Positions 8,901 to 35,360 of a DNA stretch of 64,000 nt are shown here, one piece after another. The DNA is taken from assembly GCF_029227915.1 (NCBI RefSeq), contig NC_079879.1, positions 12,068,720 to 12,132,719 on the forward strand, written 5' to 3'. Position numbers and translations under genes: made by a program. The DNA comes from Hydractinia symbiolongicarpus. Lineage: Eukaryota. A model generated the notes under the pieces. That model did no database searches. It saw nothing but the letters and a program-made list of their open reading frames with translations, and had not been told where the DNA came from. The stretch's first letter is position 1; the number at the start of each line of letters is the position of its first letter.

Positions 8901-9598
8901 TGCTTCTTTTAGCGTTGCACTGAATTTCTCCTCTAAAGTTCAGAACTGGCAAAATAGGAATAAAATTTTAAACAATTTGAGAACATTTTAAAATTTTTTA
9001 ATCGGGAAAGTTAAGATCGTTTGCTGAAGTACTTTGGCATGCTAAGCGTTCTTATGGCAGTAATTCTTGCACATGCGCAGTACGAGCAAATGAATCAAGA
9101 CCATAAGCAATAAAAACACGCGCGTTATGGCCTCTGTACGTAATGTTGAACAGTTAACAGATAGAAAAACTCACACTATTTCTACGTCCTTGATGTTAAT
9201 GTATGGATCATCTCTACGGTATTCGTCAATTTCGAAATTTTTCGGTTCGGTTGCGGGTCGGGAAAACTTAGCTGAAAGAATGAATTTTTTTCTGCATGTC
9301 TGTTGTCGCACAGAATCCCGAGAACTACTCCATACGAACATTTGGAACTAGACGCCCAAAATTTGGATCATGCTGAGAATATTTAAAGCTTTGTCAATAC
9401 TGGGAAGCACTGAGTATCATTATGATCGCCTCAGGACCTGGCAGACATCGTAGACACAGTTTTCTCCGTCCAAACAAACACCCGTTGCAGTTTTCCATCG
9501 GAATGTTTGGATTGCGCATTTCTCACACTGGCCAGGTCTTAAGAAGTACGTCTTCCCTAAGCATACCCGTGTTCCCATAGAAGGTTACAGCTTACAAG
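5917..9598 (+). repeat. HOR copy B, near-identical to copy A.
   Basis: Same as copy A. Identity decays after ~9640. Confidence 0.8.
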
Positions 9599-12500: not shown

Positions 12501-13251
12501 AAATTTACCTTGCTTCTGCAGCAGTCAAACGGATGGTAAAAGATTTTTGCTTCTTTTACCGTTGCACTGAATTTCTCCTTTAATTTTCAAAACTGGCAAA
12601 ACACGAATAAAGTTTTAAACAATTTGAGAAAATTTTGAAATTTCAAGTCGGGAAAGATAAGAACGTTTGCTGAAGTATTTTAGCATGCTAAGCGTTCTTA
12701 TGACAGTAATTTTTGCACATGCGCCGCACGAGCAAATGAATCAACACCATAAGCAATAAAAACACGCACATAATGGGCTCTGTATGCAATGTTAAACAGG
12801 TTACTGATAAAAAAACTTACACTATTTCTAGGTCCCTGATTTTAAGGTATGTATCATCTCTGCTGTATTCGTCAATTTTGTTATTTTCCAATTCGGTTGG
12901 GTGTCGGGAAGAGTTAGCTAAAAGAATGAACTTTTTTATCCATGTCCGGTGGCACACAGAATCTCGAGGAACTACTTCATACGAGCATTTCGAAGTAGAC
13001 GCCAAAAGTTAAGATCATCTTGAGAAGATCTAAGGCCTTGTCAATACTGGGAAACACTGAGTATCATTATGATCGCGTCGATACCGCGCGGATATCGCAG
13101 ACTCAGGTTTCTTAGTCCAGACAAACACCCGTTGCAGTTTGCCATCGGAAAGTTTGGATTGCGCATTTCTCACACAGGGCAGGTCTTAAAAAGTACGACT
13201 TTCCTAAGCATACCCGTGTTCCCAGAGAAAGTTACAGCTTACAAGCTTAGA

Positions 13252-13769
13252 CCTTACAAAAGACTATCATTCCAGTTATCAGGACTTGTTGGTAAATTGT
13301 AACTGTGTGCAAATTCACGAACTGCATTTACGTATAATCTGCATAGAGATTTATAAAACATTAACAGACGAAAATCCGTCATTTATGCAGTCTTCTTACG
13401 CTATAAGACGTATCAGTTACAATTTGCGCAGCAAAAATAGTCTACTTTTACCATCCACAAGTTCAACACGCTTTGATACTAGATCTTTTTTGTTTCGAAG
13501 TTGTTTGTTATGGAACTCTTTGCCTGGGAGAGTGAAGAGTTCTCTCTCCATCAAGAGTTTTAAAAGGGAACTTATCTCTTAATCTTTCAGATCTCTGCAC
13601 ATGTAGGCTACATAAGTCGGCTATTCTCGTCTCTTATTTTTAATGTTTGGTACATCTTTGCGTTTTTTGTTTATTTTTTTTTTACTTTAGTTGGTGTAAA
13701 TTAGTATTTACTATTTACTATGCAATACCAACTTTAAGTAAATGAAATATTAAAAATAATAAAAAAACC
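13252..13769 (+). mobile_element. 5'-truncated LINE 3' fragment (CR1/L2-like ORF2 C-terminal tail plus A-rich 3' end) inserted between satellite units.
   Basis: Insertion interrupts the satellite between ...ACAAGCTTAG and ATGCTGAGAAG. ORF 13286-13582 ends ...RSFLFRSCLLWNSLPGRVKSSLSIKSFKRELIS, the RSF..LWNSLP..FK..L signature of CR1/L2-type ORF2 C-termini. It finishes in AAATGAAATATTAAAAATAATAAAAAAACC. Confidence 0.55.
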
Positions 13770-15243
13770 ATGCTGAGAAGATTTAAAGCCTTGTCAATAC
13801 TGGGAAGCACTGCGTACCATTATCATTGCGTCGGGACTGCACGGACATCGTAGACTCAGGTTTCTCAGTCCAGACAAACACACGTTGCGGTTTTCCATCG
13901 GAAATCTTGGATTGGGCATTCCTCACACAAGGCAGGTCTTAAAAAGTACGACTTTCCTAAGCATACCCGTGTTCCCAGAGAAGGTTACAACTTACAAGAT
14001 TTACCTTGCTTGTGCAGCAGTCCCACGGATGGTAAAAGACTTCTGCTTCTTTTAGCGTTGCACTGAATTTATCCTTTAATGTTCAAAACTGGCAGAATAG
14101 GAGAAAAGTTCTAAACAATATGAAAACATTTTGAAATTTCAAACCGGGAAAGTTAGGAAAGTTTGCTGAAGTGTTTTGGCATGTTGAGCGTTCTTATGAC
14201 AGCAATTCTCGCACATTCGCAGCACGAGAAAATGAATCAACACGATAAGCAATAAAAACACGCGCATTATGGCCTCTCTACGCAATTTTGAACAGGTTAC
14301 AGATAAAAAAAACTCACACTATTTCTAGCTCCCTGAGTTTCAGGTATGTACCATCTCAACGATATTCGTTAATTTCGTAATTTTTCGATTCGGTTGGGGG
14401 TCGGAAAAACTTAGCTAAAAGAATGAATTTTTTTCCCCATGTGAGATATCATACAGAATCCCGAGGAACTACTCCATACGAACATTTGGAACTACACACC
14501 AAAAGTTAAGAACATGTTGAGAAGGTCTAAGGCTTTGTCAATACTGGGAAGCACTGAGTATCATTATGATCCCGTCGGGACCGCGCGGACATCGTAGACT
14601 CAGGTTTCTCAGTCCAGAAAAACACCCGTTGCAGTTTTCCATCGGAAAATTTGGATTGCACATTTCTCACACAGGCCAGGTCTTAAAAAGGTACGTCGTT
14701 CCTAAGCATACCCGTGTGCACAAGGAAAGTTATAGCTTACAAGATTTACCTTGTTTCCGCAGATGGTAAAAGATTTCTGCTTCTTTTAGCGTTGCACTGA
14801 ATTTCTCCTTTAATTTTCAAAACTGGCAAAAGACGAAAAAAGTTTTATAAAATTTGAGAACATTTTAAAACTTCAAGTCGGGAAAGTTAAGAACGTTTGC
14901 TGAAGTATTTTAGCATGTTAACGGTTCTTATGACAGTAATTCTCGCACATGCGCTGCACGAGCAAATGAATCAACACCATAAGCAATAAAAACACGTGCA
15001 TTATGGCCTTTGTGCGCAATATTTTAAGAAGGTTGCAGATAAAAAACTCAAACTAATTTTAGGTCTCTGTGTAAAAGGTATGTATACTCTCTACGGTATT
15101 CGTCAAATTGGAAATTTTTCGATTCGGTTGGGGGTCGGGAAAATTTAGCTAAAAGAAAGAATGTTTTCTCGATGTGTGGTGTCACACAGGATCCCGAGGA
15201 ACTACTCCATACGAACATTTGGAAGTAGACGCCCAAAATTTGC

Positions 15244-16867: not shown

Positions 16868-16970
16868 GCTTGTTGAAGGGGTTGTTGAGACATCGAAACC
16901 TGTCGGAGCCTGGTAGAGAGATGTCAAGCTCTGATAGAATTTTGCGGATCTGGATGTAGACGTGGAAGCG

Positions 16971-17285
16971 TTAGACGGCACGAACTAGAGGCAAAGAGGC
17001 GGTCAGATGATGCATGGAAATGCCACAAGCGGATGTTGCGCAGTAGGTAGCGAAGTTAAGCTGAGTAGACCAGAGACTGAAAGGGTGACTCTGCCACTTC
17101 TTTACTGCTGTGCCTGAGTGGAATTCATAGTCGACAAAGATGTCTGGAAATTTCACCATGAACGAGGACCCCTGCGCGTCAATAACGATGTCCTGCACTA
17201 AGAGGTCATCTCCCTTGAGCCTCTCCAGATATCTCCCGTGATTGGGCGCGTACTTTGCCTTCGGGTTGTACGAGTAAATGCTCAT
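16971..17285 (-). CDS. Hypothetical protein (element ORF-6 homolog). Arm-1 copy has the intact N-terminus MSIYSYNPKAKYAPNHGRYLERLKGDDLLVQDIVIDAQGSS and is C-terminally truncated by the arm boundary.
   Basis: ~95% aa identity to 32170-32661 (+). Confidence 0.5.
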   Translation of the reverse strand: MSIYSYNPKAKYAPNHGRYLERLKGDDLLVQDIVIDAQGSSFMVKFPDIFVDYEFHSGTAVKKWQSHPFSLWSTQLNFATYCATSACGISMHHLTASLPLVRAV

Positions 17286-17631
17286 ATTTTATTTAAGAAA
17301 CAGGGTAGCTCTGAAGTCTATTAGCATTTGACCTACGTGGTTGAACCTATACGCAAACGGTGATTTTGCTATATACACTGCAGGGTCCACGCCAGGGTCG
17401 CTAAGGGTCTCGAAGTCCGCATCCAGGTCATGAACGGTCTCTACAGGATCGAGGATCTTGCAACCATAGTCAACAGTCAGCCAGGAGACAAGATCAAGCT
17501 GTTCGTTTTGAAAAATGGAATCTGTAGACTCCGCGTGGCAAAGGGATACAACGTCGTGATTCACGAACCACTGCAGGGGCTCATGGGGATAACCTTCGAC
17601 CGGAAGGTAAATTACTTTACCGAGGGCGACT

Positions 17632-18008
17632 ATGACAGATCGAGTAGAGCAGTACCTGCGGGGTGAGATTAAAGAGTGTGGCAAGCTCGTTAAAAAGTTC
17701 AAGATGAATGGCACGTGGGTGTGTTTTTGTGATCATGGGTTGTTGAGTATCAGAATTATCACCTCAGGTGTCGGAATGGGAGCGCTAGCCTCGGGGCTCG
17801 GTGCCCCACTATGCATAGCCGTGGCAGGTATAACCATTGCTGTGGGAATTGGGCGAGCGGGTCTGGGAAGAGACTGGGTGCAAAATCCAAGAAACACGAG
17901 GGGATAAGATTACTGGCAGAGACTAAGCTCAACTCAGTCATCGACCTGATCAGCAGGGCTGTGAAGAACGGTATTATCAACGACTACGAGTTCAGCCTGA
18001 TCATGTAG
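17632..18008 (+). CDS. Small membrane protein with a glycine-zipper helix (GVGMGALASGLGAPLCIAVAGITIAVGIGRAGL). The arm-1 copy is frameshifted near 17880.
   Basis: ORFs 17632-17907 and 17811-18008 together match 31187-31384 (-). TM/Gly-zipper composition. Confidence 0.4.
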
Positions 18009-18205
18009 GAAACGCAAAAATACATGATGCTGAAGGAGTATATCAGACAACGTGTGAAGCGGATCGTTAGACACAATCAATGAACGAGAACGTCTGCAGC
18101 TTGTTATAAAGGGTCTGTCTGCAGCTTGTTATGAAGGGTCAATCTGCCTGCATTTTCATAGATCTCTCGAGCCTAGTGTGTTAAACAACACACTGGATCA
18201 GCTGC

Positions 18206-18508
18206 CTACTCGATATCGAGTACTTCTCCAGTGTCTTGATCGATGATAAGGCAGCCATCATATACGACACGTCGCTGCGTTTCAGCGAGCTCTGTCGAGT
18301 ATTGCTCAAGATTATTCGGCCACGCAATTTTGGTACAGGGTTCACAATAGGGACCGTCTCTCTGTGCTGAGGCATCATTGTGCTTGGCCTTGCAGATCGC
18401 CTCGAGAAGAGGGGCCTTATTCATCGTTGAGTAACGAGGAATCTTCAGTTCCCTCTCTTCTTTTTCTGGTTCGTCAACCTTCATGTTTGTTTCTATGGTT
18501 GAAGACAA
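18206..18508 (-). CDS. Hypothetical 100-aa protein (element ORF-3 homolog).
   Basis: Conserved inverted copy at 30677-30976 (+), ~85% aa identity. Confidence 0.5.
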   Translation of the reverse strand: MSSTIETNMKVDEPEKEERELKIPRYSTMNKAPLLEAICKAKHNDASAQRDGPYCEPCTKIAWPNNLEQYSTELAETQRRVVYDGCLIIDQDTGEVLDIE

Positions 18509-18671
18509 CCATAGAGAGCCTTGACAAGCCCTTACAATACATTGAAGCTGTCGATCGTATCGTCATCAGAGTTTCTAAAGTAACAAGCGATGTATCTTTC
18601 AACCTCTTTGTATTTACACTCTTCCAGGTAGGTCTGCAGGTAGTAGTTTGAACCTTGCCTGTAGATGCTCG

Positions 18672-19253
18672 CTAGTTTGATGATGGCCTTACACTCACAA
18701 CTTTCCTTTTGTATCTTTTTCTTATGGAAGTTGGTTCCGACTTAACCATCCCACTGTTTGTTAAGTGATACCCTTCCAAGTATCCCACCTTGATCAGGAT
18801 TTTCTCGTATTGATTTAGCCACTCAGGATAGCTGGCCAGATCGAATGACATAGTTAGCAGCTCCTCCTTAATCCTAGCCTTTTCAGCCTTCCTCTGCTGA
18901 TAGGCAGAGAGTAGTTCAGGCTCATCCTCAGAAACCCTGAGGCACATGTCTCGCGTCTTGAACCAGTCCGGCACGTACTCCAACATGCGGGGATACTTTT
19001 CAACAGCCTTGCTACACATGTCTTGAGTCTTGAATTGATCCGGCACGTGCCTGAGCATCCTAGGATACTCCTCAACAGCCTCGCTGCATATGTCTCGTGT
19101 CTTTAACCTGTCGGGGATATACTTGAATAGGTAGGGATTCCTTCTAACAAACTTGTTGCACATGTCTTGCGTCTTAAATTGATCTGGCACATACCTGATC
19201 AGTGGGAGATCCTGTTTAACCAAATTTTTCCACCTTTCTTGCCTCCAGCTCAT
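18672..19253 (-). CDS. Repeat protein with ~23-aa tandem repeats (YVPDQFKTQDMCNKxVxxNPxLFK). Resembles DUF4116-type repeats. The arm-1 copy is fused to the next ORF by a deletion.
   Basis: Four tandem repeats in the translation. Homolog 29428-29883 (+). Confidence 0.5.
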   Translation of the reverse strand: MSWRQERWKNLVKQDLPLIRYVPDQFKTQDMCNKFVRRNPYLFKYIPDRLKTRDICSEAVEEYPRMLRHVPDQFKTQDMCSKAVEKYPRMLEYVPDWFKTRDMCLRVSEDEPELLSAYQQRKAEKARIKEELLTMSFDLASYPEWLNQYEKILIKVGYLEGYHLTNSGMVKSEPTSIRKRYKRKVVSVRPSSN

Positions 19254-19304
19254 CTCTATCGTAGAGACTTCCTCAACGAGGTGGTCAGACCTTTCAGAAG
19301 GGAC

Positions 19305-19559
19305 TTTCCCCTACTCAATTACACTTTTGCAATGTCAGCATATTTTCTTGTGAGGGCTACATGATTTGTGATATTGATGACGTCATTAGTTTTGGTGAAT
19401 GCGCGTGCACGTGAGCGGGGGGTGATGTGGTGTGTTGATGACGTCACAGTTTTTTGAGGGGGTGTTGAGGGAGCGTTTTTGATGTGGGGTTTGACCGGGT
19501 GAGATTGTCGAAGGAGGGCTAAAGTAATTATGATGACTCCCTAGTACTACTACTACTAC
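19305..19559 (+). repeat. Terminal repeat T1 of the pPolB element. Inner end CCCTACTCAA, two TGATGACGTCA palindromes, outer end GACTCCCTAG(TAC)5.
   Basis: Same ~250-bp sequence occurs inverted at 29122-29345 and direct at 35080-35360. Abuts satellite at ...TACTACTAC|GGTATTCGTCA. Confidence 0.8.
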
Positions 19560-20885
19560 GGTATTCGTCATTTTGGAAATTTTTGTGATTCGGTTGGGGG
19601 TCAGAAAAACTTAGGAAACAGAAATAATTTTTTCGTAAATCTGTAGTGTCAAACGGAACCCGAAGTAACTACGCCATGAGAATATTTCATACCAGATGTC
19701 CATAAATTTAGATCATGTTGAGAACATTAAAGGCCTTTTCAATACTAAGAAGCACAATGCTCTCATTGTGATGGTGTCGGGAAGGCCTGGACATTGTAGA
19801 CTCAGTTTCCTCAGTGCAAACAAACACCTGTTGCAGTTTCCCATCGGAAATTGTGCGTTGTCCATTTGTTAGACAGGGCAGATGTTAAAAAGTACTTTTT
19901 TCCTAAGCATACCCGTGTTCTCAGAGCAGATTTCAGCTTACAATTTTTAACTTGCTTCTGCAGCAGTGCTAAGGATGGTCAAAGATTTCTGCTTCTTTTA
20001 GCGTTGCACTGAATTTCTCCTTTAAAGTTCAAAACCTGCACAATAGGGAGAAGGTTAAAAACAATTTAAGAACATTTTAAAATTTCAAATGGTGTAAGTT
20101 AAGAACGTTTGCTGCAGTATCTTGGCATGTTAAGCGTTGTTGTGACAGTAATTCTCGCAAATGCACATTAGAAGCAAATGAATCAAAACCAAAAGCAATA
20201 ACAACATGCGCAGAATGGACTCTGTACGCAATGTGGAACATGTTACAGATAAAAAAAAATTCAAACTAAGTTTAAGGTATGTATTATCACTACGTTAAAC
20301 TTTATTTTTGAATTTTTTAGATTCGGTAGGGAGTGGGAGAATTTAGTAAAAAGAAATAATTTTTTTGTGAATCTGCGGCTTCGCACGGAATTCGGAGGAA
20401 CTGCTCCATGAGAACATTTGTCACCCAATGCCCATAAATTTAGATCATGTTGAGAACATTAAAGGCCTTTTCAATACTAAGAAGCACAATGCTCTCATTG
20501 TGATCGTGTCGGGAAGGCCTGGACATTGTAGACTCAGTTTCCTCAATCCAGAAAAACGCCCGTTGCAGTTTTCCATTGGAAAGCTTGCATTTAGCATTTG
20601 TTAAACAGGCCAAGTCTTAAAAAGCACGACTTTTCTAAGCATACCCGTGTTCTCAGAACTATCTTGGCATCTTAAGCGTTCTTATGACATTAATTCTTGC
20701 ACATGCGAAGTAGAAGCAAATGAATCAAAACCGTAAGCAATAAAAACACACGTATTATAGTCTCTGTACGCAATGTTTAACATGTTACAGATAAAAAGAT
20801 TCAAACTAGCTCCAGGTCCCTGAGTTTAAGGTATGTTTAATTTAGCAAAAAGAAAGACTTTTTTTGTGAATCTGTGGTGTCACAC
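19560..20885 (+). repeat. Degenerate satellite-derived segment (~75-80% to array consensus) separating T1 from the next element end.
   Basis: Recognisable satellite head/tail blocks (ATGTTGAGAACATTAAAGGCCTTTTCAATACTAAGAAGCAC...). Confidence 0.7.
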
Positions 20886-21100
20886 GGAGTAATAGTAGGG
20901 GTTCATGATGTGTACAGTGACACTTTTCAACGGCCCAACTTCCACTTAAAAATCCCTCCTCAGCTACCCCTCTAAGAGACTATGACGTCACAGATGAATC
21001 ATACCTCAAATGAGTAAAACACTAACCTTTTTCACTCATGCATGTCATCATGCTCAACTTTAGTAGAAAGGGGGAATTCCCTACTCAAATTTTGAATGCT
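20886..21100 (+). repeat. Variant terminal repeat T' (GGAGTAATAGTAGGGG ... CTATGACGTCACAG ... GGGGGAATTCCCTACTCAAATTTTG) immediately upstream of the pPolB start.
   Basis: Abuts satellite at ...GGTGTCACAC|GGAGTAATAG. Shares the CCCTACTCAA inner motif and one TGACGTCA with T. Mirrored at 28755-28968. Confidence 0.6.
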
Positions 21101-21135
21101 AGGTTCGAGTTTGGAATGTACTTATAGCAAAGAGA

Positions 21136-22925
21136 AATGAGTTAGTTCAAGAATGCGATCTGCCAACATTACAGCACTGCATCAGCGCCGGTAGCAGGAC
21201 CTCGCGACCTACTTGCCGCTCGATTAAAGGACGTGCGAGATGCTGTTACTCTTATTATAATACGGTAAAAGAACAAATTTTGAGAGGGACAACGCCTCAG
21301 GATTATGTCAAACAGGAAGCACAGCAAGACTACTACGATACGGAGGAAAAACGAGAAGAATATCAGTGGATTGAAGACCTCAAACACATGTTCCCTAGAG
21401 AGAAGAAGCAGGCCACGGACCTAGAAGGAATCCAAGACATTCAGCATATTTTTGACGATAAGGATATAAAATTGTTATAAGATGGAAATAGAGTTAAAAT
21501 TTAGAGAATCAACAAGAATCTGAACCAACAACTAACGGATGCGATCATGCGAAAAATTGCACCATACGTAGACATGCGAGTAAATGTTGTTTACAGCTTC
21601 AGCTGTGATATTCACAAAGGTGGAGGTGGTGTATCTCCGTATCACAAAAGTAAGACCTCCAGGTCGGTATCAAGCATCGCAGAAATCGAAGTATTCATAG
21701 AAGAATGTGAAATGACGCTTTTTAAGGATAGTGAGTTTTGGAGTAAAGTATATTTACCGCCAGTCAGAAACCGAGACCCCAAGAGCATATTAAGGAAAAA
21801 TCGTCTTCGATCATGTGCAGATCAAGTTTATAAGCAAGCGTGAGACTTTTTTGGGATGCGGCCCTGTTTTAAATTGCCTGCGAAGAAAGAGATGCATCTA
21901 CAACTTACATAAGGAAGATGAAAGAACTGCAAAATTGGTGAGTTTGTCGATGTCTTGCCATAAACTATCGTGTAGAGAGAAAGCAGCGCGAGAAGCATAT
22001 CACACAAAAAGCCCTCAAACTAGCTCGCAAGTACTATGAGAACCCTAACCTGAAGCGTAAAGACGTACGTTCTACGAAGGTTGTAGATTTCCAGGATATA
22101 GCGAAGCTTTTCAGTATCAACATTAGACACAATCAACCTTGGTATGCTGGATGGACACTGCTTCTACATCAAGGATTTAGACGTACTGGCGCAACAGAAA
22201 TGGGAATGTGGGGTATGCATATAATATAATAAGGGAACAGGGATACAACCTCATCACAGCCTGAGAATGTGACGATCTTCCCAAAACCAAGAAGTACACC
22301 GGTAAGTGTCGCCATTCACGATAGACTTAATGGAGATCCAACGTTCATCGAGCACGTGGACCGAAAATTTTGGTTAAACAGTTAGTGGGGCAGTTGGAAA
22401 GGAGGCATACCCTCATCGTGGAAGAAGTCAAGAGAATGTACCCAAAGCCTGACGATTGCAACATGCTTTCCAAAAAGATCTAGGATGCGTGGAACGAGTG
22501 GGTAAACTAGGTTGCTGTAATTGGTTTTAACAATGGCAAGTATGACATCAATATGATCAAGTGGTACTTTGTGGAGAAAATTAGCTATAGCGATAAGATC
22601 AAATTGGCGAAGAAAGACAACGAATGCATGTTCCTCAAAACCTTGACGTTTAAATTTCTCGATATCAAGATTTCCTCGCTCCTGGTATGAGCTATGACAG
22701 ATGGTCTCTGGAATGTAAACTAAAAAAAAGCTCGTGTTTCCGTACGAGTGCTTAACAAACTACGACAAGTTGAGCCAAGTCGGACCTGTCGCGCACAAAA
22801 ACTTCTACAGTAGTTTTAGTGGGAAAAACACGCTATCTCCTGAAGAGTACGAAACATTCCACGCAGAGTCTTACAACCAGCTTCATGTCACCATTCTCAT
22901 GACGGTGCCAGGCAAACAACTGCTT
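21136..22925 (+). pseudogene. pPolB 5' half, arm-1 copy: N-terminal region plus exonuclease domain. Nonsense at codon 3 (ATG AGT TAG), several frameshifts.
   Basis: ORFs 21280-21480, 21547-21843, 21815-22039, 22734-22964 match the arm-2 ORFs. Exo II-like NNGKYDINMIKWYF near 22530-22575. Confidence 0.6.
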
Positions 22926-25789
22926 TTTCTACCTCCTCAGATCCTTGTGCAATGCAGTATATGACTGAATGAGTAGCTACAAATTGTGTTTACGATGTCT
23001 TCCCGAAATAGACAATTCAAGTAGTGAATGTCGACGCTTATCGAGGTTTTCGTCGGCTGTGGCATCGTCGACTATGAAGGGGCTTTCTTCGCCTGCTAGC
23101 AATGAGGACAGGTTTTAAATCTATTGAAAATGTTGGTCCTTGGGGTCTATCAGGAACACGTAGTCGTCGCGCCAGAGCGAGGCCCTTTCGAGATAGGTAC
23201 CGTTCCACCACAAGGTAGAACATAAAAATATGATATTGTGATAGTGGTGTCTGTATTAATTTTCTAGGAGGTTCATAACACGTTGTGTTTTACCACAAGA
23301 CGTCGGGCCTGTGAAAATTGCTGTGCACGGTTCCATCACAATGTCCAACATTTTTTTCTAATAATTCGACCACTTCTTGTCGTGAATTTTGGGGTATATT
23401 GCTGCACATGAAGAACATATTAACACACCACCGTCAGGACCTAGGATTTTTTTCAGGTTAGGCAAAATTTGACAGATTTTTTGGCAAATTAATATCAAGG
23501 CTTGTGGTGTTGTACAAGGTGAAGCGGCCGTTTTGTGTTTTTATTATAAAAGGAGCTAAAATCGTTCCAAAAGTGAGGTTTTTAGTTATTAAAAATTCTT
23601 CCTAGATTAGAAACGAAAGTGTCTTTATAGCCCAATAAATAAAAGTAACCTCCGTAGTTTAACACTGTTATCCTCGCTAAAACATGCGGATGGAAAACTC
23701 CGTTTGGTAAATTAGACTCGAAACAGGGTTAGCGTTGCCATAGTTCCTTTGAATGACATACCACACTGGTATCATCTAAGCATCTTTTTTACGTTTTATG
23801 CATTTAATACGAGTACAAGTAATCGCCAAGTTACAAATTTGGGGAGTTACTTTATTTCAAAATATGCAATAAGTCTAATAGCTAATAATACAACAAAAAA
23901 TTACATTACAAGACAATTTTAGGAATAGATAGTCAACAGCAATGCAACGTAGAATTATTGTTTGGAAAATTACAGCCTGTGTTAACAACCTGCAAATGCA
24001 AAAACAAAAGCATGTGTAAGATAGCAACGTATAATAAACGACTACAAAAAGTATATAGTAGTTACCCCTTTATGAAGTTAATATTTTTTAATATTAAGGT
24101 TACTGGTGTAGTTTCGCACCAATTTCTATTAAGCATTAATTTTATTGTTAAAAAATTTCCACAAAAGTTGAGTACTTTATTAAGCCAGAAAAGAGTTGGA
24201 ATCAAGAAAAATAACATCAAAACATTTAACATGTCTGCATATTATTTACCCTCACATGCCCCTGTCAACTATGTTTAAAAGTACTTCGAAATTTTTAAAA
24301 AAGTTTTAGTAACTAGGTCAATTTTGAAGATTCTCATATAAAAAGCAACATATATATATATATACAAATTCTACTCATATGCATAAGTTAACATGACATT
24401 TTCATTGGTTTGTAGCAGAACGTTCTTTAACATGCAATTCTTGTTTCGATCTGTATCATTTTACGTGAAAATCATTTCTATCAGTACAAGTTATTTTGAT
24501 ATCATACCCATCCATTTGATATATAAATATATATCCATTGTTTACAGTTTTCCAATATTATAAGGATTCATAATGAATCTCCTGTGTTCTTTAATTGATG
24601 GTGGTTTTAATTGTCAGAAGAATATTCAAAATGGCTGACATCAATATATCTTATCCTAAAACAAAATTATACATGTTGTATTACTCAACAAAAAAGAAGG
24701 AATATTACACAACAAGCTTGGACTATTCTTAGATTGGGTATTGTTTCATTCTTTTGTTTTTAACAATTATATCAGAATTGAAAGCAGCATGGGAAAGTTA
24801 AGGATTTTTAAAATGGGCAGTGGGATGTAGTATATATAATCTACTGTTTAAAAGTTCCAATTCCAAGTCACAATCCTCAGGGACACTCACAATCGAAACG
24901 CAAATTTGACGTTGGGACAAGGTGGAATCCTTTGCCTTTAGGCATATGTCATGCTGTAAACATTGATTTCTTAGAGAAGAAGGTATTTTGAACTTGTCGT
25001 CTACCTGCTTAACACGAGCACATATCCGAGTGCGTATGATTTCAGAGACTGACAACATTCAAATATTACCTATCTGTAGATTCCCAGGGAAAAGATATCT
25101 ACAGACTTATTTACATTTTTGCGTTTATGAAAGAGCTGTGCCATAGTTATTTTACAAGAATTATTTTTTTTCCACAGACACAAAGATACACAGTTGCATA
25201 AACGACTACACGAAGCCTGTGACCTTAAGACAATAAACAAAAAAACTAAAAAAATTCCAACCAATACACATGCAACTTAGTAATACTCTATGCCAAACAA
25301 TACATACACCTCCAAACATTTTTTGACTGCCATGACAGTGTTTACACAAATTGCCTCGGTTATCTCGTTTAGCATTGGGCTTTAATAAACAAACAATCGA
25401 TGTCAAGTTAAAAATTTTTGTTTTGATAAAAAAGAGATTTAAATCACACGTTTTATAAGAACATCTGGTGTTTCACCACGTTTAAGACTAGTTCTTGAAA
25501 CAAAAGTGTCTTAAATCCAGTAGCAGTAAAAACTAAAATATATGAAGTATAACTTACTTTAAAGCAATGAATTTATTGTCTCTTGCAGAGGCAGGGTGAA
25601 GGTTTGGTTTGGGACAACAACATGGCACACGTGATAAAAAAACTTTCCATTTCCAATCCTTTCAGTATCTGAAAGGGTTTCCAAATTCAAAACGTCTTCA
25701 TTAAAGTTATACAATTGCTTTGAAATTCTAGCCATTTGAACTTGACCTAGCTAAGCCATGTTGAAAAAGAAGCATCCACTTGTCGTCCG

Positions 25790-26194
25790 TAACCATACCC
25801 GTGGTAGTTTTAGGCGTATAAACTTAAAAACCCACGAACGTTTTAGGCGCTTTAACTTAAAAACCCACGGACGTTTTAGGCGTTTTTCCTTCCCATTTCA
25901 GAACTTCATTCATTGAAATTTGAAAACCCACGGACGTTTTAGGCGAATCGACATTTTTCCTAAGATTGCCCCGGGTTTGCTTTTTTTTAATAAAATATCA
26001 ATCATGAAAAAATCGATAAAACGCGGCATCGTCATGAAGTCGAAATCGGCGGATGCCTAAACCAATTTACAAAAATAATGCATTTTTTTATAGATTATTT
26101 TATCTAAATCTATAAAAAAAAATCTAGGCCACAAATTTATTTAGGCTGAGGCAATTGCCTAGGCCGCCTAACACTAGATCCGCCCCTGTCTACC
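25790..26194. mobile_element. Probable terminus of a DNA-transposon-like element with TTAGGC/CCTAGG-type subterminal motifs and tip CAGGGGCGGAT (rc). Same family as 47445-48040. Its insertion coincides with truncation of the arm-2 pPolB copy.
   Basis: rc(26160-26190)=GACAGGGGCGGATCTAGTGTTAGGCGGCCTAGGCAATTGCC versus 47995-48030 GCCTAATTAGGTCCAGGGGCGGATACAGG. Confidence 0.4.
25795..25975. repeat. ~4 tandem copies of a ~33-bp unit (AACTTAAAAACCCACGGACGTTTTAGGCG).
   Basis: Direct reading. Confidence 0.7.
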
Positions 26195-28717
26195 GGGACG
26201 AGTAGGCTCTCAACTCGTGGTACCTACAAAATACGATCGCGGGGCCACCGACCATCCCCGTTTGGAACAACTCGTAGGCCTCATTCTTTATACATCTTTT
26301 ACATGTTTTCTGCACTTCTTTGCATTCCTTGCATTTGCTGTTGTAGCAGTCTTTTTTACACTTGTGCTTGCATGGTTCTCCTGGAGCGTATAGCTGCAAC
26401 TTTGGATTCAGTCGTAGAGACTTGTTCAGGACGTGGCGCATCGACACACTTGGAATGCTTACTGCGTCCTTCAAAATGTCTATTTATTCATCGTAATACT
26501 ACTGCCTCGTCTTGTCTGCGGCTTCAATGAATGGCTCCACGTCGACTAGATTTTACACGCGACCAATCCATCATGGTGACGCAGCCTCGCTTGTAAGACT
26601 CTGCGCGGAATGTTTCGTACTCTTCAGGAGATAGCGTGTTTTTCCCACTAAGACTACTGTAGAAGTTTTCGTGCGCGACAGGTCCAACTTGGCTCAACTT
26701 GTCGTAGTTTGTTAAGCACTCGTACGGAAACACGAGCTTTTTGAGTTTACATTCCAGAGACTTGCATCATCTGTCATAGCTCATAACAGGAGCGAGAAAA
26801 TTCTTGATATCGAGAAATTTAAACCTCAAGGTTATCGCTATAGTCTTTCGCAATTTTCTCCACAAAGTACCACTTGATCATATTGATGTCATACTTGCCA
26901 TTGTTAAAAACAATTACAGCAACCTAGTTTACCCACTCGTTCCACGCATCCTAGATCTTTTTGGAAAGCATGTTGCAATCGTCAGGCTTTGGGTACATTC
27001 TCTTCACTTCTTCCACGATGAGGGTATGCCTCCTTTCCAACTGCTCCACGAATTGTTTAACCAAAATTTTCGGTCCTCGTGCTCGATGAACGTTGGATCT
27101 CCATTAAGTCTATCGTGAATGGCGACACTTACCGGTGTACTTCTTGGTTTTGGGAAGATTGTCACATTCTCAGGCTGTGATGAAGTTGTATCCCTGTTCC
27201 CTTATTATATTTTCCTTCTTCAACAGGGCAATCCATGCCAGTACCACCCGTAGTACTCGTAAACGGTCTTCGTGATAGGCTCATAACCGTCAACTTTCCA
27301 CACCTTTCCTTTGTCAACACGTATAACACGTTCACCACAATGACCACATAAAGCATGTTGAATATGTCTCCAAGTCTTCTTGGACATGTATTTAATCCAT
27401 TGAGATGCAGCGTAGCTGAAGTTTTCACCGTAAAAGACCTCCTCCGACTTGCTCGGCACACTTTCTCCCTTTTGCAAATGATTGTTGTCTTGACCCCTTC
27501 GCATTCATTTTTCTTATGCCGCGATAGGTGGTCAGCTTTTTTAAAAACTTGAATGCATACCCCACATTCCCATTTCTGTTGCGCCAGTACGTCTAAATCC
27601 TTGATGTAGAAGCAATGTCCACCCAGCATACCAAGGTTGATTGTGTCTAAACCTTTTTTGTATTGATTCTGGCCGTAGATGAGTCTCCATGGTACCTTTT
27701 CAGAGTTTTTCTTGGGCTCAAAGACTCTGATGTTGATACTGAAAAGCTTCGCTATATCCTAGAAATCTATAACCTTCGTAGAACGTACGTCTTTACGCTT
27801 CAGTTTAGGGTTCTCATAGTACTTGCGAGCTAGTTTGAGGGATTTTTGTGTGTATGCTTCTCGCGCTGCTTTCTCTCTACACGATAGTTTATGGCAAGAC
27901 ATCGCCAAACTCACCAATTTTGCAGTTCTTTCATTTTCCTTATGTAAGCTGTAGATGCATCTCTTTCTTAGCAGGCAATGTAGAAGAGGGTCGCATCCCA
28001 AAAGAGGCTTACGCTTGCTTATAAACTGCACATGATCGAAGACGATTTTTCCTTAATATGCTCTTGGGTTCTCGGTGGTTCTAACTGGCGGTAAATATAC
28101 TTTACTCCAAAACTCACCATCCTGAAGACGCATCATTTCACATTCTTCTAAGAGTACTTCGATTTCTGCGATGCTTGATACCGACCTGGAATTCTTACTT
28201 TTGTGATACGGAGTTACACCACCTCCACCTTTGTGAATATCACAGCTGAAGCTGTAAATAACATTTACTCGCATGTCTATGTATGGTGCAATTTTTCGCA
28301 TGATCGCATCCGTTAGTTGTTGGTTCAGATTCTTGTTGATTTTCTAAGTTCTAACTCTATTTCCATCTTATAACAATTTTATATCCTTATCGTCAAAAAT
28401 ATGCTGAATGTCTTGGATTCCTTCTAGGGCCGTGGCCTGCTTCTTCTATCTAGGGAACATGTGTTTGAGGTCTTCAATCCACTGATATTCGTCTTGTATG
28501 TCCTCCGTATCGTAGTAGTCTTGCTGTGCTTCCTGTTCGACATAATCCTGAAGCGTTGTCCCTCTTAAAATTTGTTCTTTTACCGTATTATAATAAAGAG
28601 TAACAGCATCTCGCACGTCCTTTAATCGAGCGGCAAGAGGGTCGCGAGTTCCTGCTACCGGCGCTGATGCAGTGCTATTACAGCATTGCATCAGATCGCA
28701 TTCTTGAACCAACTCAT
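26195..28717 (-). pseudogene. pPolB 5' half, arm-2 copy: N-terminus, exonuclease region, C2HC-like zinc finger, up to the pre-motif-A segment EAYELFQTGMVGGPAIVFCRYHE. Frameshifted.
   Basis: ORFs 28446-28712, 28053-28301, 27759-28031, 27162-27629, 26524-26733, 26190-26474. Last 80-100 bp overlap-homologous to 34770-34870. Confidence 0.6.
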
Positions 28718-28754
28718 TTCTCTTTACTATAAGTACATCCCAAACTCGAACCCA

Positions 28755-28968
28755 GCAGTCAAAATTTGAGTAGGGAATTCCCCCTTTCTACTAAAGTTGA
28801 GCATGATGACATGCATGAGTGAAAAAGGTTAGTGTATTACTCATTCGAGGTATGATTCATCTGTGACGTCATAGTCTCTTAGAGAGGTAGCTGGGTAAGG
28901 ATTCTGAAGTGGGAGTTGGGCCGTTGAATAGTGTCACTGTACACATCATGAACCCCTACTATTACTCC
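28755..28968 (-). repeat. Variant terminal repeat T' (arm-2 copy).
   Basis: Mirror of 20886-21100. TTGAGTAGGG at 28766-28775, TGACGTCA at ~28868. Confidence 0.6.
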
Positions 28969-29121
28969 GTGTGACACCACAGATTCACATAAAAGTATTT
29001 CTTTTTGCGAAATTTGCCCGACTCCCAACCGAATCAAAAAATTTTGAAAATGACGATTACCGTAGAAGTGATACATACTTTAAACTCAGAGACCTAGAAT
29101 TAGTTTGAATTTTTTTAACTG

Positions 29122-29345
29122 TAGTAGTAGTAGCACTAGGGAGTCAACATAATTACCTTAGCGCTCCTTCGACAATTTCACCCGGTCAAACCCCACATCA
29201 AAAACGCTCCCTCAACACCCCCTCAAAAATCTGTGACGTCATCAACACACCACATCACCCCCCCCGCTCACGCGCACGCGCATTCACCAAAACTAATGAC
29301 GTCATCGATATGCTGACATTGCAAAAGTGTAATTGAGTAGGGGAA
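29122..29345 (-). repeat. Terminal inverted repeat T2.
   Basis: Reverse complement of T1 (~90% identity). (TAG)4 tip at 29122. TTGAGTAGGG at 29333-29342. Confidence 0.8.
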
Positions 29346-29427
29346 AGTCCCTTCTAAAAGGTCTGACCACATCGTTGAGGAAGTGCCTACGATAGAGATG
29401 AGATAGAGGCAAGAAAGGTGGAAAAAT

Positions 29428-29883: not shown

Positions 29884-30332
29884 ACGATGAAGGAACACTG
29901 CGATGAATGTGAACGCGTGCTCGACGGGTACGACAGGTGCGATTGTGGACGGAGGTTCTTGAGAAGACCTAGGCTGCTCTGCCGGTCCTGCTACTAGGAG
30001 TGCATCACGTACAATGGTGGTAGCTGCTATTGCGCAACGACATAGAAGAGCCTGGTTGAGGTTTTGTCTCCACAATAAAGAGGATGTTGATGAAATTTGG
30101 AGACAAAACTGTTAAGTAACTGTTACACCAACTCATAACCGCTAAACATCAAAGAGGTGAACATTGAAAACCTTATATTGAGCAACCGTATTGCAGCCAA
30201 CAAGGCGAAGGATCAACGCTTTGTCATAGGGTATCAGGACCAAGACGCACCATAGCACCACTACTGCTCAAAAGCCCTGAAAAGATCCACTCGAAGGGTG
30301 TCTCGTGCTTCAGCGAAGGCTCCGCGCTAACT

Positions 30333-30653: not shown

Positions 30654-30676
30654 GGGCTTTTCAAGGCTTTCTATGG

Positions 30677-32661: not shown

Positions 32662-32709
32662 AAATCTCAGGGTCTCACTCATACTGGCATAGAGAGCCTG
32701 TCGCAAAGC

Positions 32710-33575: not shown

Positions 33576-35035
33576 CTACACCTTTTTCGCAGTGTCTAAA
33601 CTCCCTTTTAACGTGCTCATGTACCTAGACCACGTCACAGCATTCTGCATCCTTGACATCCCCTTGCACGAAAATTTTGTGCCCTCTTTTCCTTCGACGA
33701 AATAGCACTTGGCTGTCAGGTCAATCATCCGAGACCCGATGAATTCCGCTTTGAATAACCCTCCCGTTCGACTCGAGTACTTATCGGTGACAAGCCAGTT
33801 TTTCACGTCCTCGTCGTACTTGTCGAACAGTTCAGGGCGAACGACAACTTGCAACTCTTCTTCAGAGATGGCAAAATAGGCACTGTCTGTATCCATGTAG
33901 CAATACTCAAAGTTTCAACGGTCTACGTACTTGTCCAGGAAGTCGTAGTAGAATTCAAGCATGCACAACTTCGCCAGCTGATAGACGGCTATACCACATT
34001 GGTAAGCTCTATCGATGCTGACCCATGCCTACCTTTTCTGATCTGTACGCATCTCCTGTCTCTTCAAGGTCCTCGAGGTATGCGTTTCGCAGGGCTGCAT
34101 CGACCTCCTTTTCGTCTCTGGTAAACGTAATGTTCGCGTGCCTTGCCAGATCTTCGATCATCTTGCCATAGAACGAGTTCCCCTTCAACTTGGCTGTATC
34201 TCCCGCAATACGCTTGTCAGGGTCTTTATCCGCTTGTCGTCGTGCATCCGTAATCTCTGTTGGGAACCATGTAAATGGTTTGCCTCGGGTGTATTTGATT
34301 AACTGGTGAAAGGCAGTCACTCTCAATCCATGTTCAATGTACCATTTCAGTACGGGCGTATACAACAAGATCCTCTCTGCTTTCATCAACCCTAGTAGCT
34401 TACGCGTACCTGGAACACGCTTGAGCCCTGTAGTTGTCAAGTACTCTTGCATGTGCTCGGGGATTTGATCGTGGGGTATCTCCTTGACCACAAATAGCGG
34501 AGCCATCTCGCTGAATTTGTCATACAGTTCCGGAGGTACCTCGATATCGACTTGCGCAAAGCCGAAGAGCGATCCAATTTGAACACCTCGCGTCAGTATA
34601 TCGAGATTGTGCGCCGATGTCGGTGTAGACACCTTGAAAAGCTTTTCCTTCCCACACGGAAAGTCTTCCAGCATGGTACTTGGGTAGAGCATGTTTGCGT
34701 CGTACCCTAGAATGGTTTTGCATTTGTTTTGCTCCTTGTAGATGTGAGATCTGATACCCGTCACGTTGCTCTCGTGGTACCTACAGAAAACAATCGCGGG
34801 GCCACCGACCATCCCCGTCTGCAAGAGCTCGTAGGTCTCATTCTTCGTGCACTCTGTGCATGATCGTGAAGTGTTGTTGTTGTTTTGCTGAAATTTGTTC
34901 CTTCGCCTTGTTGTAATAAAAAGTAACAGTATCCCACACACTCTTCAATCGATTAGTAAGTGGGTCTCGAGTTGCTGCAACTGGCGCTGATACGGTGTCG
35001 TACATTTTGCTTATTGCGTTCTTGAACCAACTCAT
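33576..35035 (-). pseudogene. pPolB of copy E-a. The N-terminal ~55 aa are joined by a frameshift to the polymerase domain. Motif A is GYDANMLYPS, motif B is KLKGNSFYGKM, motif C is YMDTDS, and the KxY motif is LTAKCYF. A frameshift lies near 34012-34040 and an in-frame TGA at ~33915.
   Basis: ORFs 34838-35035, 34009-34941, 33576-33896. Hand translation of 33897-34014 shows the open frame DRAYQCGIAVYQLAKLCMLEFYYDFLDKYVDR followed by TGA, then NFEYCYMDTDS. Confidence 0.75.
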
Positions 35036-35079: not shown

Positions 35080-35360
35080 TGATTTGAGTAGGGGAATACC
35101 CTCTACTCAACTTGGGTATGGTGACTCAGCGGTCGATGCCGTCGTTTCTGTTGATGTCAGCATATTTTCGTGTGAGGGTTACATGACTTGTGATATCGAT
35201 GACGTCATTAGTTTTGGTGGATGCGCATGCGCAGGGGGGGTTGATGACGTCACAGGTTTTTTGGGGGGTGTTTGAGGGAGCGCTTTTGATGTGGGATTTG
35301 ACCGGGTGAAAGTGTCGAAGGAGCGCCAAAGTACTTATGTTGACTCCCTAGTACTACTGT
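35080..35360 (+). repeat. Terminal inverted repeat T3.
   Basis: ~85-90% identical to T1. TTGAGTAGGG at 35084-35093. Two TGATGACGTCA sites. Ends CTAGTACTAC then satellite in minus orientation. Confidence 0.8.

What the first reader, a model, noticed from the sequence alone, without database searches (positions are those of the whole stretch)
19305..19559. Terminal repeats with paired CRE/ATF palindromes, trinucleotide tips and a TTGAGTAGGG motif next to the first gene
T1, T2 (29122-29345) and T3 (35080-35360) share a fixed layout. The inner end has CCCTACTCAA (= TTGAGTAGGG on the gene side) 40-100 bp upstream of the first ORF. Two copies of the 11-bp palindrome TGATGACGTCA lie ~60 bp apart, separated by a G-rich/GC block (GCGCGTGCACGTGAGCGGGGGG). 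The outer end is GACTCCCTAG followed by (TAC)2-5. TGACGT(CA) clusters are classic ATF/CREB sites and also occur in adenoviral ITR-proximal promoters. The TTGAGTAGGG motif recurs at the variant ends T' (21079-21088, 28766-28775). It may be a promoter/initiator element or part of a protein-primed replication origin.
Basis: partly seen in the sequence, partly recalled or inferred. Interest (0 to 1): 0.6.

Follow-up and report, generated by a model that had tools for sequence, protein, structure and literature searches.

The report
Maverick/Polinton virus-like transposon end repeats
These are the terminal inverted repeats of decayed Maverick/Polinton virus-like transposons in an animal genome; they carry the family's known triplet-repeat tips and a conserved cluster of host-type transcription-factor sites upstream of the end genes, so it is a well-behaved member of a known kind and not a new system.

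Summary
T1, T2 and T3 share one layout, and every motif is confined to element ends: TGACGTCA occurs 8 times (0.8 expected), TTGAGTAGGG 5 times, and the tip consensus AGTAGTANTAGGG 5 times (0.11 expected).

The elements are degraded Maverick/Polinton (adintovirus-like) copies inserted in a 743-bp satellite. They carry a protein-primed polB and an A32 ATPase fragment. Relatives with 76-78% polB identity carry rve integrase.

The "(TAC)n" tip is the published Maverick end motif 5'-(AGT)n//(ACT)n-3' read in another frame. The literature ascribes it to jumping-back in protein-primed replication. GACTCCCTAG is part of a ~30-nt tip core (AGTAGTANTAGGGAGTSAA..AAGTAC) conserved in relatives.

CRE, AP-1 and MARE (bZIP-type) sites are strongly enriched in the tip-to-ATG regions of 11 ends. 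TTGAGTAGGG is one half of a ~27-bp imperfect palindrome with an NF-kB-like core. Its centre lies 52-66 bp upstream of the first ATG in five ends, which fits a promoter-proximal element better than an origin element.

Corrections: T1/T2 and the two T' ends are copies from one large inverted duplication; the 11-mer is not a palindrome and occurs exactly 4 times, not 6. Function is inferred, not tested.

Verdict: new member of a known kind; modest interest.

The parts
19543..19557 (-). T1 tip. Candidate 5-bp target duplication ACGGT at 19558-19562.
   Evidence: Satellite homology begins at about 19555.
19519..19551 (-). Conserved ~30-nt tip core AGTAGTACTAGGGAGTCATCATAATTAC, which includes GACTCCCTAG (19535-19544). 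Putative origin and integrase-recognition core.
   Evidence: Alignment A2 of 10 ends.
19378..19385 (.). T1 inner CRE/ATF palindrome TGACGTCA, 132 bp upstream of the first ATG.
19439..19446 (.). T1 outer CRE/ATF palindrome TGACGTCA.
19401..19423 (.). GC/G-rich block between the CREs. It contains the E-box CACGTG here. The homologous block reads TGCGCATGCGCA (NRF1-like palindrome) in T3.
19292..19318 (.). T1 inner imperfect palindrome TTTCAGAAGGGACTTTCCCCTACTCAA. Its core GGGACTTTCC (19300-19309) matches the NF-kB consensus, and its centre lies 51.5 bp upstream of the ATG.
18672..19253 (-). First gene at the T1 end: an accessory ORF with DUF4116 repeats, starting MSWRQE.
   Evidence: Pfam PF13475, E = 1e-26.
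29123..29351 (+). T2, the left end of element B and a duplicate of T1. Tip AGTAGTAGTAGCACTAGGGAGTC; CREs at 29234-29241 and 29297-29304; TTGAGTAGGG at 29333-29342; kB-like core at 29342-29351.
35084..35358 (-). T3, the right (polB-side) end of element B. Tip AGTAGTACTAGGGAGTC ends at 35358. CREs at 35200-35207 and 35245-35252; NRF1-like TGCGCATGCGCA at 35222-35233; palindrome TTGAGTAGGGGAATACCCTCTACTCAA at 35084-35110.
33585..35035 (-). Element B polB remnant. It starts MSWFK at 35035 and has an internal deletion of about 2.3 kb relative to element C. The leader TTATAATAAACAGGATG lies immediately upstream.
   Evidence: Pfam DNA_pol_B_2; 76-79% amino-acid identity to the polB of L002/L003.
28715..28966 (-). 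T' right end of element C. Tip AGTAATAGTAGGGG at 28966; one CRE at 28864-28871; palindrome with GGGAATTCCC core at 28766-28795; leader TTATAGTAAAGAGAAATG; polB ATG at 28717.
20888..21139 (+). T' left end, the inverted duplicate of the right T' end. CRE at 20983-20990, CCCTACTCAA at 21079-21088, ATG at 21137.
26214..28717 (-). Element C polB N-terminal ~855-aa region. It is a pseudogene with stops and a frameshift.
   Evidence: tblastn with L003 polB.
22875..23348 (-). Fragment of a Pox_A32/FtsK-type packaging ATPase inside element C.
   Evidence: 56-65% identity to the ATPases of L002/L003, which hit PF04665.

Best explanation
T1, T2, T3 and the T' ends are the terminal inverted repeats of old, internally deleted Maverick/Polinton (adintovirus-like) elements. 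The elements are integrated in a 743-bp satellite of an animal genome. I read each ~250-325-bp terminal region as two functional parts.

(a) The tip. It consists of 5'-(AGT)n followed by a conserved ~30-nt core (AGTAGTANTAGGGAGTSAA..AAGTAC). The inferred role is as the origin for protein-primed replication: the polymerase would prime on an internal triplet and jump back, so a reiterated triplet is required and its copy number can drift, here (AGT)2 to (AGT)4. The tip is presumably also the end that the rve integrase recognises.

(b) An inward-facing promoter/enhancer for the terminal gene, which is polB at one end and an accessory DUF4116 gene at the other. It appears to be built from host transcription-factor sites. 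These are one or two CRE/ATF palindromes, an NRF1-like or E-box GC block, and a ~27-bp palindrome with an NF-kB-like core about 60 bp upstream of the ATG. On the polB side a conserved leader ATAATAAAGAGA(A/G)ATG follows.

Shown here: the element family, the exact ends, the motif layout, motif enrichment and cross-lineage conservation. Inferred, not tested: jump-back replication, transcription-factor binding, promoter activity and integrase recognition.
For: Family:
- polB matches Pfam DNA_pol_B_2.
- Of 483 polB homologues, the closest that I looked up lie in loci that also carry rve integrase and/or the Pox_A32 ATPase.
- The window also holds an A32 ATPase fragment.

Ends:
- Satellite homology begins at the tips.
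- AGTAGTANTAGGG occurs only at the five ends.
- The tip core is conserved across window T, T', L003, L135 and L136, although the rest of their TIRs hardly aligns.
- The intact relative L136 has 99-100% identical TIRs, the same tip at both ends and a 5-bp target duplication, GAAAT.
- The literature reports Maverick end motifs (AGT)2//(ACT)2 and expects them to allow jumping-back (PMC8097293).
- L003 and L138 read ACTACTA where the other ends read AGTAGTA. Both triplets changed together, as expected if one templates the other.

Promoter part:
- TGACGTCA occurs 8 times in 3.8 kb of independent terminal regions and 4 times in 214 kb outside them. CRE-like sites are found in 8 of 11 regions, and MARE half-sites occur 25 times against 1 expected.
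- The CRE plus GCGCATGCGC module, with shared flanks AAAAAA(C/G)CTGTGACGTCA, is kept between window T3 and L136.
- The innermost bZIP site lies 93-201 bp from the ATG, whereas the tip-to-site distance varies from 95 to 443 bp.
- The kB-like core centre lies 51.5-65.5 bp upstream of the ATG in T1/T2, T3, T', L137 and L139.
- L137 keeps the palindrome with the same G-to-A change in both halves.
Against: - No transcript, binding or replication data could be consulted.
- The window copies are pseudogenes with stops and frameshifts. Their motifs are therefore relics, not necessarily active.
- No integrase gene is present in the window copies.
- L005 and L006 (55% polB identity) have the (AGT)n tip but no CRE, AP-1 or kB sites. 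The transcription-factor module is clade-specific, not family-wide.
- Several terminal regions are distantly homologous, notably L003, L135 and L138. The Poisson enrichment values therefore overstate independence.
- The target duplication of the window elements is ambiguous (candidates ACCGT and ACTGT). Element B also has an unexplained ~61-bp flanking duplication.
- A TATA-like leader 5-15 nt before the ATG is too close to be a classical TATA box for that ATG, so the transcription start is unknown.
Confidence: 0.72

Rival explanations
1. The CRE, GC-block and palindrome sites act mainly as auxiliary replication-origin elements. Host factors bound next to the core origin would recruit or stabilise the initiation complex, as NFI and Oct-1 do in the adenovirus ITR. 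In this reading the sites are not primarily promoters.
For: The sites lie inside the inverted repeat proper, so both ends carry them. From my own memory, not tested here: the adenovirus 5 ITR carries two TGACGT motifs flanking a G-rich, Sp1-type block distal to the core origin.
Against: The distance from tip to CRE varies from 95 to 443 bp, while the distance to the ATG is much tighter. The palindrome keeps its position relative to the ATG, not the tip. L005 and L006 keep the tip but lack the sites. The two roles are not mutually exclusive.
Confidence: 0.12
2. The repeated motifs are binding sites for element-encoded proteins, not host transcription factors. This applies especially to the TTGAGTAGGG..CCCTACTCAA palindrome, which resembles the tip's AGTAGGG. 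Candidates are the integrase, the terminal protein/polymerase or a Bro-N DNA-binding protein, acting for example in autoregulation or end synapsis.
For: The palindrome half GAGTAGGG resembles the tip sequence (T)AGTAGGG(AG), and L003 has a second GAGTAGGG 14 nt inside the tip. The palindrome extends beyond a 10-bp kB site. Relatives encode Bro-N proteins.
Against: L137 and L139 keep the palindrome (TGAGTAAGGG...) although their tips lack TAGGG (AGTAGTATATAAC; AGTAGTAATATAGAG), so tip and palindrome do not co-vary. TGACGTCA, TGCTGAGTCAGCA, GCGCATGCGC and GGGACTTTCC are exact textbook sites for host bZIP, Maf, NRF1 and Rel factors. That match is from established knowledge of the consensus sequences, not a test.
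Confidence: 0.12
3. The layout has no function. It is simply inherited sequence in dead copies, with the apparent motifs arising by chance or from CpG-rich composition. In this reading (TAC)n is a host microsatellite or a junction artefact.
For: The copies are pseudogenes. T1/T2 and the two T' ends are duplicates of one another.
Against: The motifs recur in T' and in L004, L136, L137 and L139, whose surrounding sequence does not align with T. Enrichment is far above background. The CpG-containing CRE cores are intact in all six T copies although the repeats are only 85-91% identical. The (AGT)n tip is present in relatives from other samples and in the literature.
Confidence: 0.04

Closest known systems
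Vertebrate Mavericks/Polintons (Kapitonov & Jurka 2006; Barreat & Katzourakis 2021, PMC8097293)
   Same: Protein-primed polB at one end. TIRs of a few hundred bp. Triplet end motif 5'-(AGT)n//(ACT)n-3'. Short (5-6 bp) target duplication, seen here in relative L136. Relatives carry rve integrase and the A32 ATPase.
   Different: The window copies are short deletion derivatives (about 6-8 kb) without integrase or capsid genes. Up to four AGT repeats instead of two. Non-vertebrate host. The closest polB hit I could trace to an organism is from a Halichondria panicea (sponge) assembly; the named polB N-terminal hits are from Hydractinia symbiolongicarpus. The conserved 30-nt tip core and the CRE/NRF1/kB-like module were not described in the papers I could search.
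Adintoviruses (Starrett et al. 2021, PMC8502044)
   Same: Animal-associated polB plus rve plus adenovirus-like virion genes, bounded by ITRs and found both integrated and apparently free-ended.
   Different: No free-ended form was found for this clade. Scans of IMG/VR with the tip core and with polB found nothing related. Virion genes are absent from the window copies.
Adenovirus inverted terminal repeat and its E1A/E4-proximal regions
   Same: Works alike in outline: a reiterated triplet at the 5' end (CATCATCAAT) used for jumping-back, a conserved core origin next to it, then host-factor sites including TGACGT (ATF) motifs and G-rich blocks, with inward-facing promoters at both genome ends. 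This comes from established knowledge and from PMC8097293; it was not tested here.
   Different: Different repeat unit and core sequence. No NFI or Oct-1 sites were looked for or found. The element integrates through an integrase. No sequence homology between the repeats was shown.
phi29/PRD1-type protein-primed phage ends
   Same: Terminal reiteration allows sliding-back after internal priming.
   Different: Reiteration of 1-4 single bases instead of a triplet. Prokaryotic hosts. No transcription-factor site module.

Membership tests
Maverick/Polinton (Polintoviricetes-like, adintovirus-like) elements | [quoted passage not shown] | tested here: met
   Pfam PF03175 DNA_pol_B_2, E = 1.4e-6 and above the curated cut-off. 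76-79% identity to the polB of L002/L003. The N-terminal ~855-aa region is present in element C. All window copies are pseudogenes.
Maverick/Polinton (Polintoviricetes-like, adintovirus-like) elements | Retrovirus-like (rve) integrase gene | tested here: not met
   tblastn with the L003 rve protein found nothing in the window. rve is present in relatives L003, L006, L137, L138 and L139. I read the window copies as internally deleted, non-autonomous derivatives.
Maverick/Polinton (Polintoviricetes-like, adintovirus-like) elements | FtsK/A32-type packaging ATPase plus capsid and protease genes | tested here: inconclusive
   An ATPase fragment lies at 22875-23348 (56-65% identity). The other L002/L003 gene products, whose functions were not identified, gave only two weak, partial matches in the window. 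Capsid and protease genes were not specifically identified or searched for.
Maverick/Polinton (Polintoviricetes-like, adintovirus-like) elements | Terminal inverted repeats of tens to hundreds of bp | tested here: met
   T2 and T3 of element B are 85-91% identical over about 220 bp. L136 TIRs are 99-100% identical.
Maverick/Polinton (Polintoviricetes-like, adintovirus-like) elements | Reiterated end motif, 5'-(AGT)2//(ACT)2-3' or (AG)3//(CT)3 | tested here: met
   Tips are (AGT)2-4 in T1, T2 and T3 and AGTAAT in T'. Relatives have (AGT)2-3. The motif is as published in PMC8097293.
Maverick/Polinton (Polintoviricetes-like, adintovirus-like) elements | 5-6-bp target site duplication | tested here: inconclusive
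   The intact relative L136 has a clear 5-bp GAAAT duplication. In the window, element B can be read with ACTGT on both sides and T1 with ACCGT. Triplet ambiguity at the junction and a ~61-bp flanking duplication prevent a firm call.
Adenovirus-type ITR (considered as an analogue, not as a family assignment) | Covalently attached terminal protein and jumping-back initiation on a reiterated triplet | not testable with these tools
   Only the reiteration itself is visible. The concerted AGT-to-ACT change in L003 and L138 is indirect support.
Adenovirus-type ITR (considered as an analogue, not as a family assignment) | Host-factor sites (ATF, Sp1, NFI, Oct-1) adjacent to the core origin | tested here: inconclusive
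   CRE/ATF-type and GC-rich sites are present and enriched. Binding was not testable, and NFI and Oct-1 sites were not examined.

The most novel reading that the evidence does not exclude
A clade of Mavericks, likely from sponge and cnidarian hosts, has kept a terminal promoter module built from host sites. The module comprises bZIP sites (CRE in some lineages, AP-1/MARE in others), an NRF1-type palindrome, and a ~27-bp palindrome with an NF-kB-like core fixed about 60 bp upstream of the first ATG at both ends. Under this reading, expression of the endogenous virus is wired to host stress or immune signalling, in the way NF-kB sites work in the HIV LTR. In addition, the concerted AGT-to-ACT switch at the tips of two relatives would be natural-variation evidence that the terminal triplet is templated by the internal one (jump-back).
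Probability: 0.3. Interest if true: 0.5.

Novelty: new member of a known kind. Interest (0 to 1): 0.3.

Why it matters
The terminal repeats of Mavericks/Polintons are usually mapped only in order to delimit the elements. In the papers I could search, the only internal feature described was the 6-bp end motif. This window and nine related ends together give three things.

- A ~30-nt conserved tip core that could serve as a search model for ends.
- A natural example of both tip triplets changing together.
- A recurrent set of host-type transcription-factor sites placed relative to the first gene.

If the sites are functional, they would indicate which host signals switch these endogenous viruses on. 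That question is open for animal Mavericks, whose virions and induction conditions are still unknown. For annotating this window the result is ordinary: dead Maverick copies in satellite DNA.

Tried and rejected
1. I scanned IMG/VR and JGI metagenome contigs for the paired 11-mer TGATGACGTCA-N30-60-TGATGACGTCA. This gave 4 and more than 120 loci. None shows nucleotide similarity to the window's ends or encodes a relative of the Maverick proteins.

2. I scanned IMG/VR for the full palindrome TTGAGTAGGG-N5-9-CCCTACTCAA. The four hits are short isolated hairpins in large viral contigs, with no surrounding similarity to the elements here. I read them as chance or terminator-like hairpins.

3. I scanned IMG/VR for the tip core AGTAGTANTAGGGAGTSAA. 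The one hit lies within a 114-kb viral contig and has no element-like context. A polB-based search of IMG/VR found nothing. No free linear viral genome of this clade was found.

4. L001 and L002 lack ends. L001 is a tandem array of polB fragments and L002 is cut off 264 bp upstream of the gene.

5. No tip could be located in L004, although three AAATGACGTC motifs (two of them full TGACGTCA sites) lie upstream of its polB.

6. Host identification failed. Exact look-up of ten window ORFs found none in the collection. The closest homologues of the O-GlcNAcase exon carry no organism names. No gene record was found for the Hydractinia protein P0128.

7. I considered that the inner palindrome and the tip share one binding protein. 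I rejected this as the main reading because tip and palindrome do not co-vary in L137 and L139.

8. I considered T1 and T2 as independent support. This was rejected because they are arms of one inverted duplication.

9. Kapitonov & Jurka 2006 could not be read. Its content is cited only through PMC8097293.

Full report
**What is there.** Every motif it listed is present and is confined to element ends.
- TGACGTCA occurs 8 times in 64 kb, against 0.81 expected. There are two each in T1, T2 and T3 and one in each T' end.
- TTGAGTAGGG occurs exactly 5 times, all at inner ends.
- GACTCCCTAG occurs 3 times.
- A tip consensus derived later, AGTAGTANTAGGG, matches only the five ends, against 0.11 expected.

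Four corrections are needed.
- The 11-mer TGATGACGTCA is not a palindrome; only the 8-bp core is. It occurs exactly 4 times, not 6.
- The CRE spacing is 61 and 63 bp in T1 and T2 but 45 bp in T3.
- T1/T2 and the two T' ends are copies of each other. Windows 16868-22894 and 26573-32500 are the arms of one large inverted duplication at 91-98% identity. The window therefore holds three independent ends.
- TTGAGTAGGG is one half of an imperfect palindrome, TTGAGTAGGG-N7-CCCTACTCAA. It is best preserved in T3 (35084-35110), and one or the other half has decayed in T1/T2 and T'.

**Context.** Positions 1-15240 are a satellite array with a ~743-bp period. All element ends abut satellite sequence, and homology to the satellite starts exactly at the tips. 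The rest of the window carries animal-type genes and transposon debris, including a GH84 O-GlcNAcase exon and a hAT dimerisation domain. The host species could not be identified.

**What the elements are.**
- The ORF next to T3 is a protein-primed family B polymerase (Pfam DNA_pol_B_2).
- It has 483 homologues, nearly all from ENA assemblies, many on contigs of hundreds of kb to several Mb that I take to be eukaryotic. The best hit comes from a Halichondria panicea (sponge) assembly.
- The N-terminal part of polB, which survives only in element C, also matches Hydractinia symbiolongicarpus proteins.
- Loci encoding the closest relatives also carry an rve integrase, a Pox_A32 packaging ATPase, and Bro-N and other accessory genes. 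That is the Maverick/Polinton (adintovirus-like) gene set.
- The window keeps only pieces. Element B (29123-35358) has the polB C-terminal part and a DUF4116 accessory gene. Element C (20888-28966) has the polB N-terminal part and an ATPase fragment. No integrase is present.
- These are old, internally deleted, non-autonomous copies.

**The tip.**
- Read in another frame, "(TAC)n" is 5'-(AGT)n on the strand that runs inward. This is the end motif already published for vertebrate Mavericks, 5'-(AGT)2//(ACT)2-3'. The authors, following Kapitonov and Jurka, expect it to allow the jumping-back step of protein-primed replication, as in adenoviruses and tectiviruses (PMC8097293).
- I recovered ends of nine related elements. 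L005, L006, L135, L136, L137 and L139 begin with (AGT)2-3.
- L136 is an intact 8.1-kb element with 99-100% identical repeats, the same tip at both ends and a 5-bp target duplication, GAAAT.
- GACTCCCTAG belongs to a ~30-nt core, AGTAGTANTAGGGAGTSAA..AAGTAC. The core is conserved between window T, T', L003, L135 and L136, although the rest of these repeats barely aligns.
- L003 and L138 read ACTACTA where the others read AGTAGTA. Both triplets changed together, which is what one expects if one triplet templates the other.
- T1/T2 carry two more AGT units than T3. This fits slippage at a reiterated end.
- All of this is sequence evidence. Jump-back itself was not testable.

**The transcription-factor-like sites.** In 11 independent tip-to-ATG regions (3.8 kb in total), counts inside against the remaining 214 kb of the same sequences are as follows.

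| Site | Inside (3.8 kb) | Outside (214 kb) |
|---|---|---|
| TGACGTCA | 8 | 4 |
| CRE-like sites | 10, in 8 of 11 regions | 13 |
| MARE half-sites | 25 | 57 |
| NF-kB consensus | 7 | 9 |

- Lineages differ in which bZIP site they use. Window T, T', L004, L136, L137 and L139 have CREs. L003, L135 and L138 have AP-1/MARE palindromes such as TGCTGAGTCAGCA plus TGACGTAA or TGACGCAA. L005 and L006 have none.
- The GC block between the two CREs reads TGCGCATGCGCA (an NRF1-type palindrome) in T3. The same CRE plus GCGCATGCGC module, with similar flanks, occurs in L136. T1 and T2 have diverged from it at a few positions, one change creating an E-box in T1.
- The innermost bZIP site lies 93-201 bp from the first ATG, while its distance from the tip ranges from 95 to 443 bp.

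**The inner palindrome.**
- Its core matches or nearly matches the NF-kB consensus: GGGACTTTCC in T1/T2, GGGAATTCCC in T', GGGGAATACCC in T3, and GGGAAATTCC in L137 and L139.
- Its centre lies 51.5-65.5 bp upstream of the first ATG in all five independent ends.
- L137 keeps a near-perfect palindrome, TGAGTAAAGGGAAATTCCCTTACTCA, with the same G-to-A difference from the window motif in both halves. That fits a symmetric binding site.
- A fixed distance to the gene and a variable distance to the tip favour a promoter-proximal role over an origin role.
- On the polB side a conserved leader, ATAATAAAGAGA(A/G)ATG, follows. It is too close to the ATG to be a classical TATA box for that start, so the transcription start remains unknown.

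**Most likely mechanism.** The terminal ~30 nt would act as replication origin and integrase substrate. The next ~200-300 bp would act as an inward promoter/enhancer that borrows host factors, duplicated at both ends because it lies in the inverted repeat. In outline this is how adenovirus genome ends are organised. That comparison rests on established knowledge and on PMC8097293, not on a test here.

**Rivals.**
- The sites might mainly help replication. The distance data argue against this as the main role, but the two roles are not exclusive.
- The sites might be bound by element proteins such as integrase or Bro-N. Against this, tip and palindrome do not co-vary.
- The layout might be functionless inherited sequence. 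Recurrence of the motifs in non-alignable ends argues against this.

**Comparison and novelty.** The elements meet the polB, TIR and end-motif criteria for Mavericks/Polintons. The window copies fail the integrase criterion, but close relatives carry rve, so I treat them as deleted members of the family and not as something else. The triplet tip is already known. The conserved tip core, the concerted AGT-to-ACT variant and the CRE/NRF1/kB-like promoter module were not described in the papers I could search. They are details within a known kind of element. Interest is modest.

**Unresolved.** Element B is flanked by a ~61-66-bp direct duplication of the satellite, about 75-80% identical. Each copy begins ACYGT and ends CTGT. 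The T1 copy lacks it and reads ACCGT|AGTAGT. A long target duplication from non-concerted end integration, recombination between two insertions, or a later microhomology deletion in the T1 copy are all possible.

Noticed in passing
window 16868-22894 and 26573-32500: One large inverted duplication: arms of about 6 kb at 91-98% identity, with a 3.7-kb AT-rich spacer. It includes part of element A/B, some satellite and half of element C. It explains why T1/T2 and the two T' ends come in mirror pairs, and why element C appears to have 2-kb 'TIRs' that contain coding sequence.
   Followed up: partly
window 1-15240; also 19560-20839, 28967-29122 and 35359-36270: Tandem satellite with a ~743-bp period and a 237-bp sub-period. 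All Maverick copies in the window are inserted in it.
   Followed up: partly
window 29057-29122 and 35354-35422: Element B is flanked by a ~61-66-bp direct duplication of satellite sequence (about 75-80% identical). Each copy begins ACYGT and ends CTGT. The duplicate end T1 lacks it and has the junction ACCGT|AGTAGT at 19558-19562. This could be a long target duplication from non-concerted integration, recombination between two insertions, or a later microhomology deletion.
   Followed up: partly
L136 9722-17823: An apparently young, intact 8.1-kb relative with 99-100% identical TIRs and a 5-bp target duplication, GAAAT. Both terminal genes begin with the same ATGAGTTGGTTCAGAAA (MSWFRN), so the inverted-repeat similarity resumes at the start codons. 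In the window, polB starts MSWFKN and the DUF4116 gene starts MSWRQE.
   Followed up: partly
L003 2482-2500 and L138 4527-4545: The tips read ACTACTA(G/A)TAGGG where all other relatives read AGTAGTANTAGGG. The same G-to-C change is present in both triplets.
   Followed up: partly
window 35019-35035 and 28715-28733; L003, L135-L139 just upstream of the polB ATG: A conserved leader, (T)ATAATAAAGAGA(A/G)ATG, lies immediately before the polB start codon across lineages whose upstream sequence is otherwise diverged. Its role is unknown. It is too close to the ATG to be a standard TATA box.
   Followed up: no
window 18672-19253 (-) and 29428-29883 (+): The terminal gene at the non-polB end encodes DUF4116 repeats (VPDQFKTQDMC...), an accessory gene. 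Its C-terminal tail resembles that of an ankyrin-repeat protein in L003.
   Followed up: no
window 34845-34891 compared with 26288-28568: Element B's polB lacks about 2.3 kb of N-terminal coding sequence that is present in element C. That region includes a C2H2-like motif and a YEYYGWYWHG motif.
   Followed up: no
L001 1-4717: This contig from the Halichondria panicea assembly is a tandem array of ~790-bp polB-fragment repeats, not an element. A piece of Maverick polB has become a satellite-like repeat.
   Followed up: no
L135 8728-9713 and 12361-12763: The L135 element is embedded in a short-unit satellite (ACTGTCCCACTGTCCCATAAGC...) that appears in inverted orientation on both sides of the polB fragment. 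This is another case of this clade sitting in satellite DNA.
   Followed up: no
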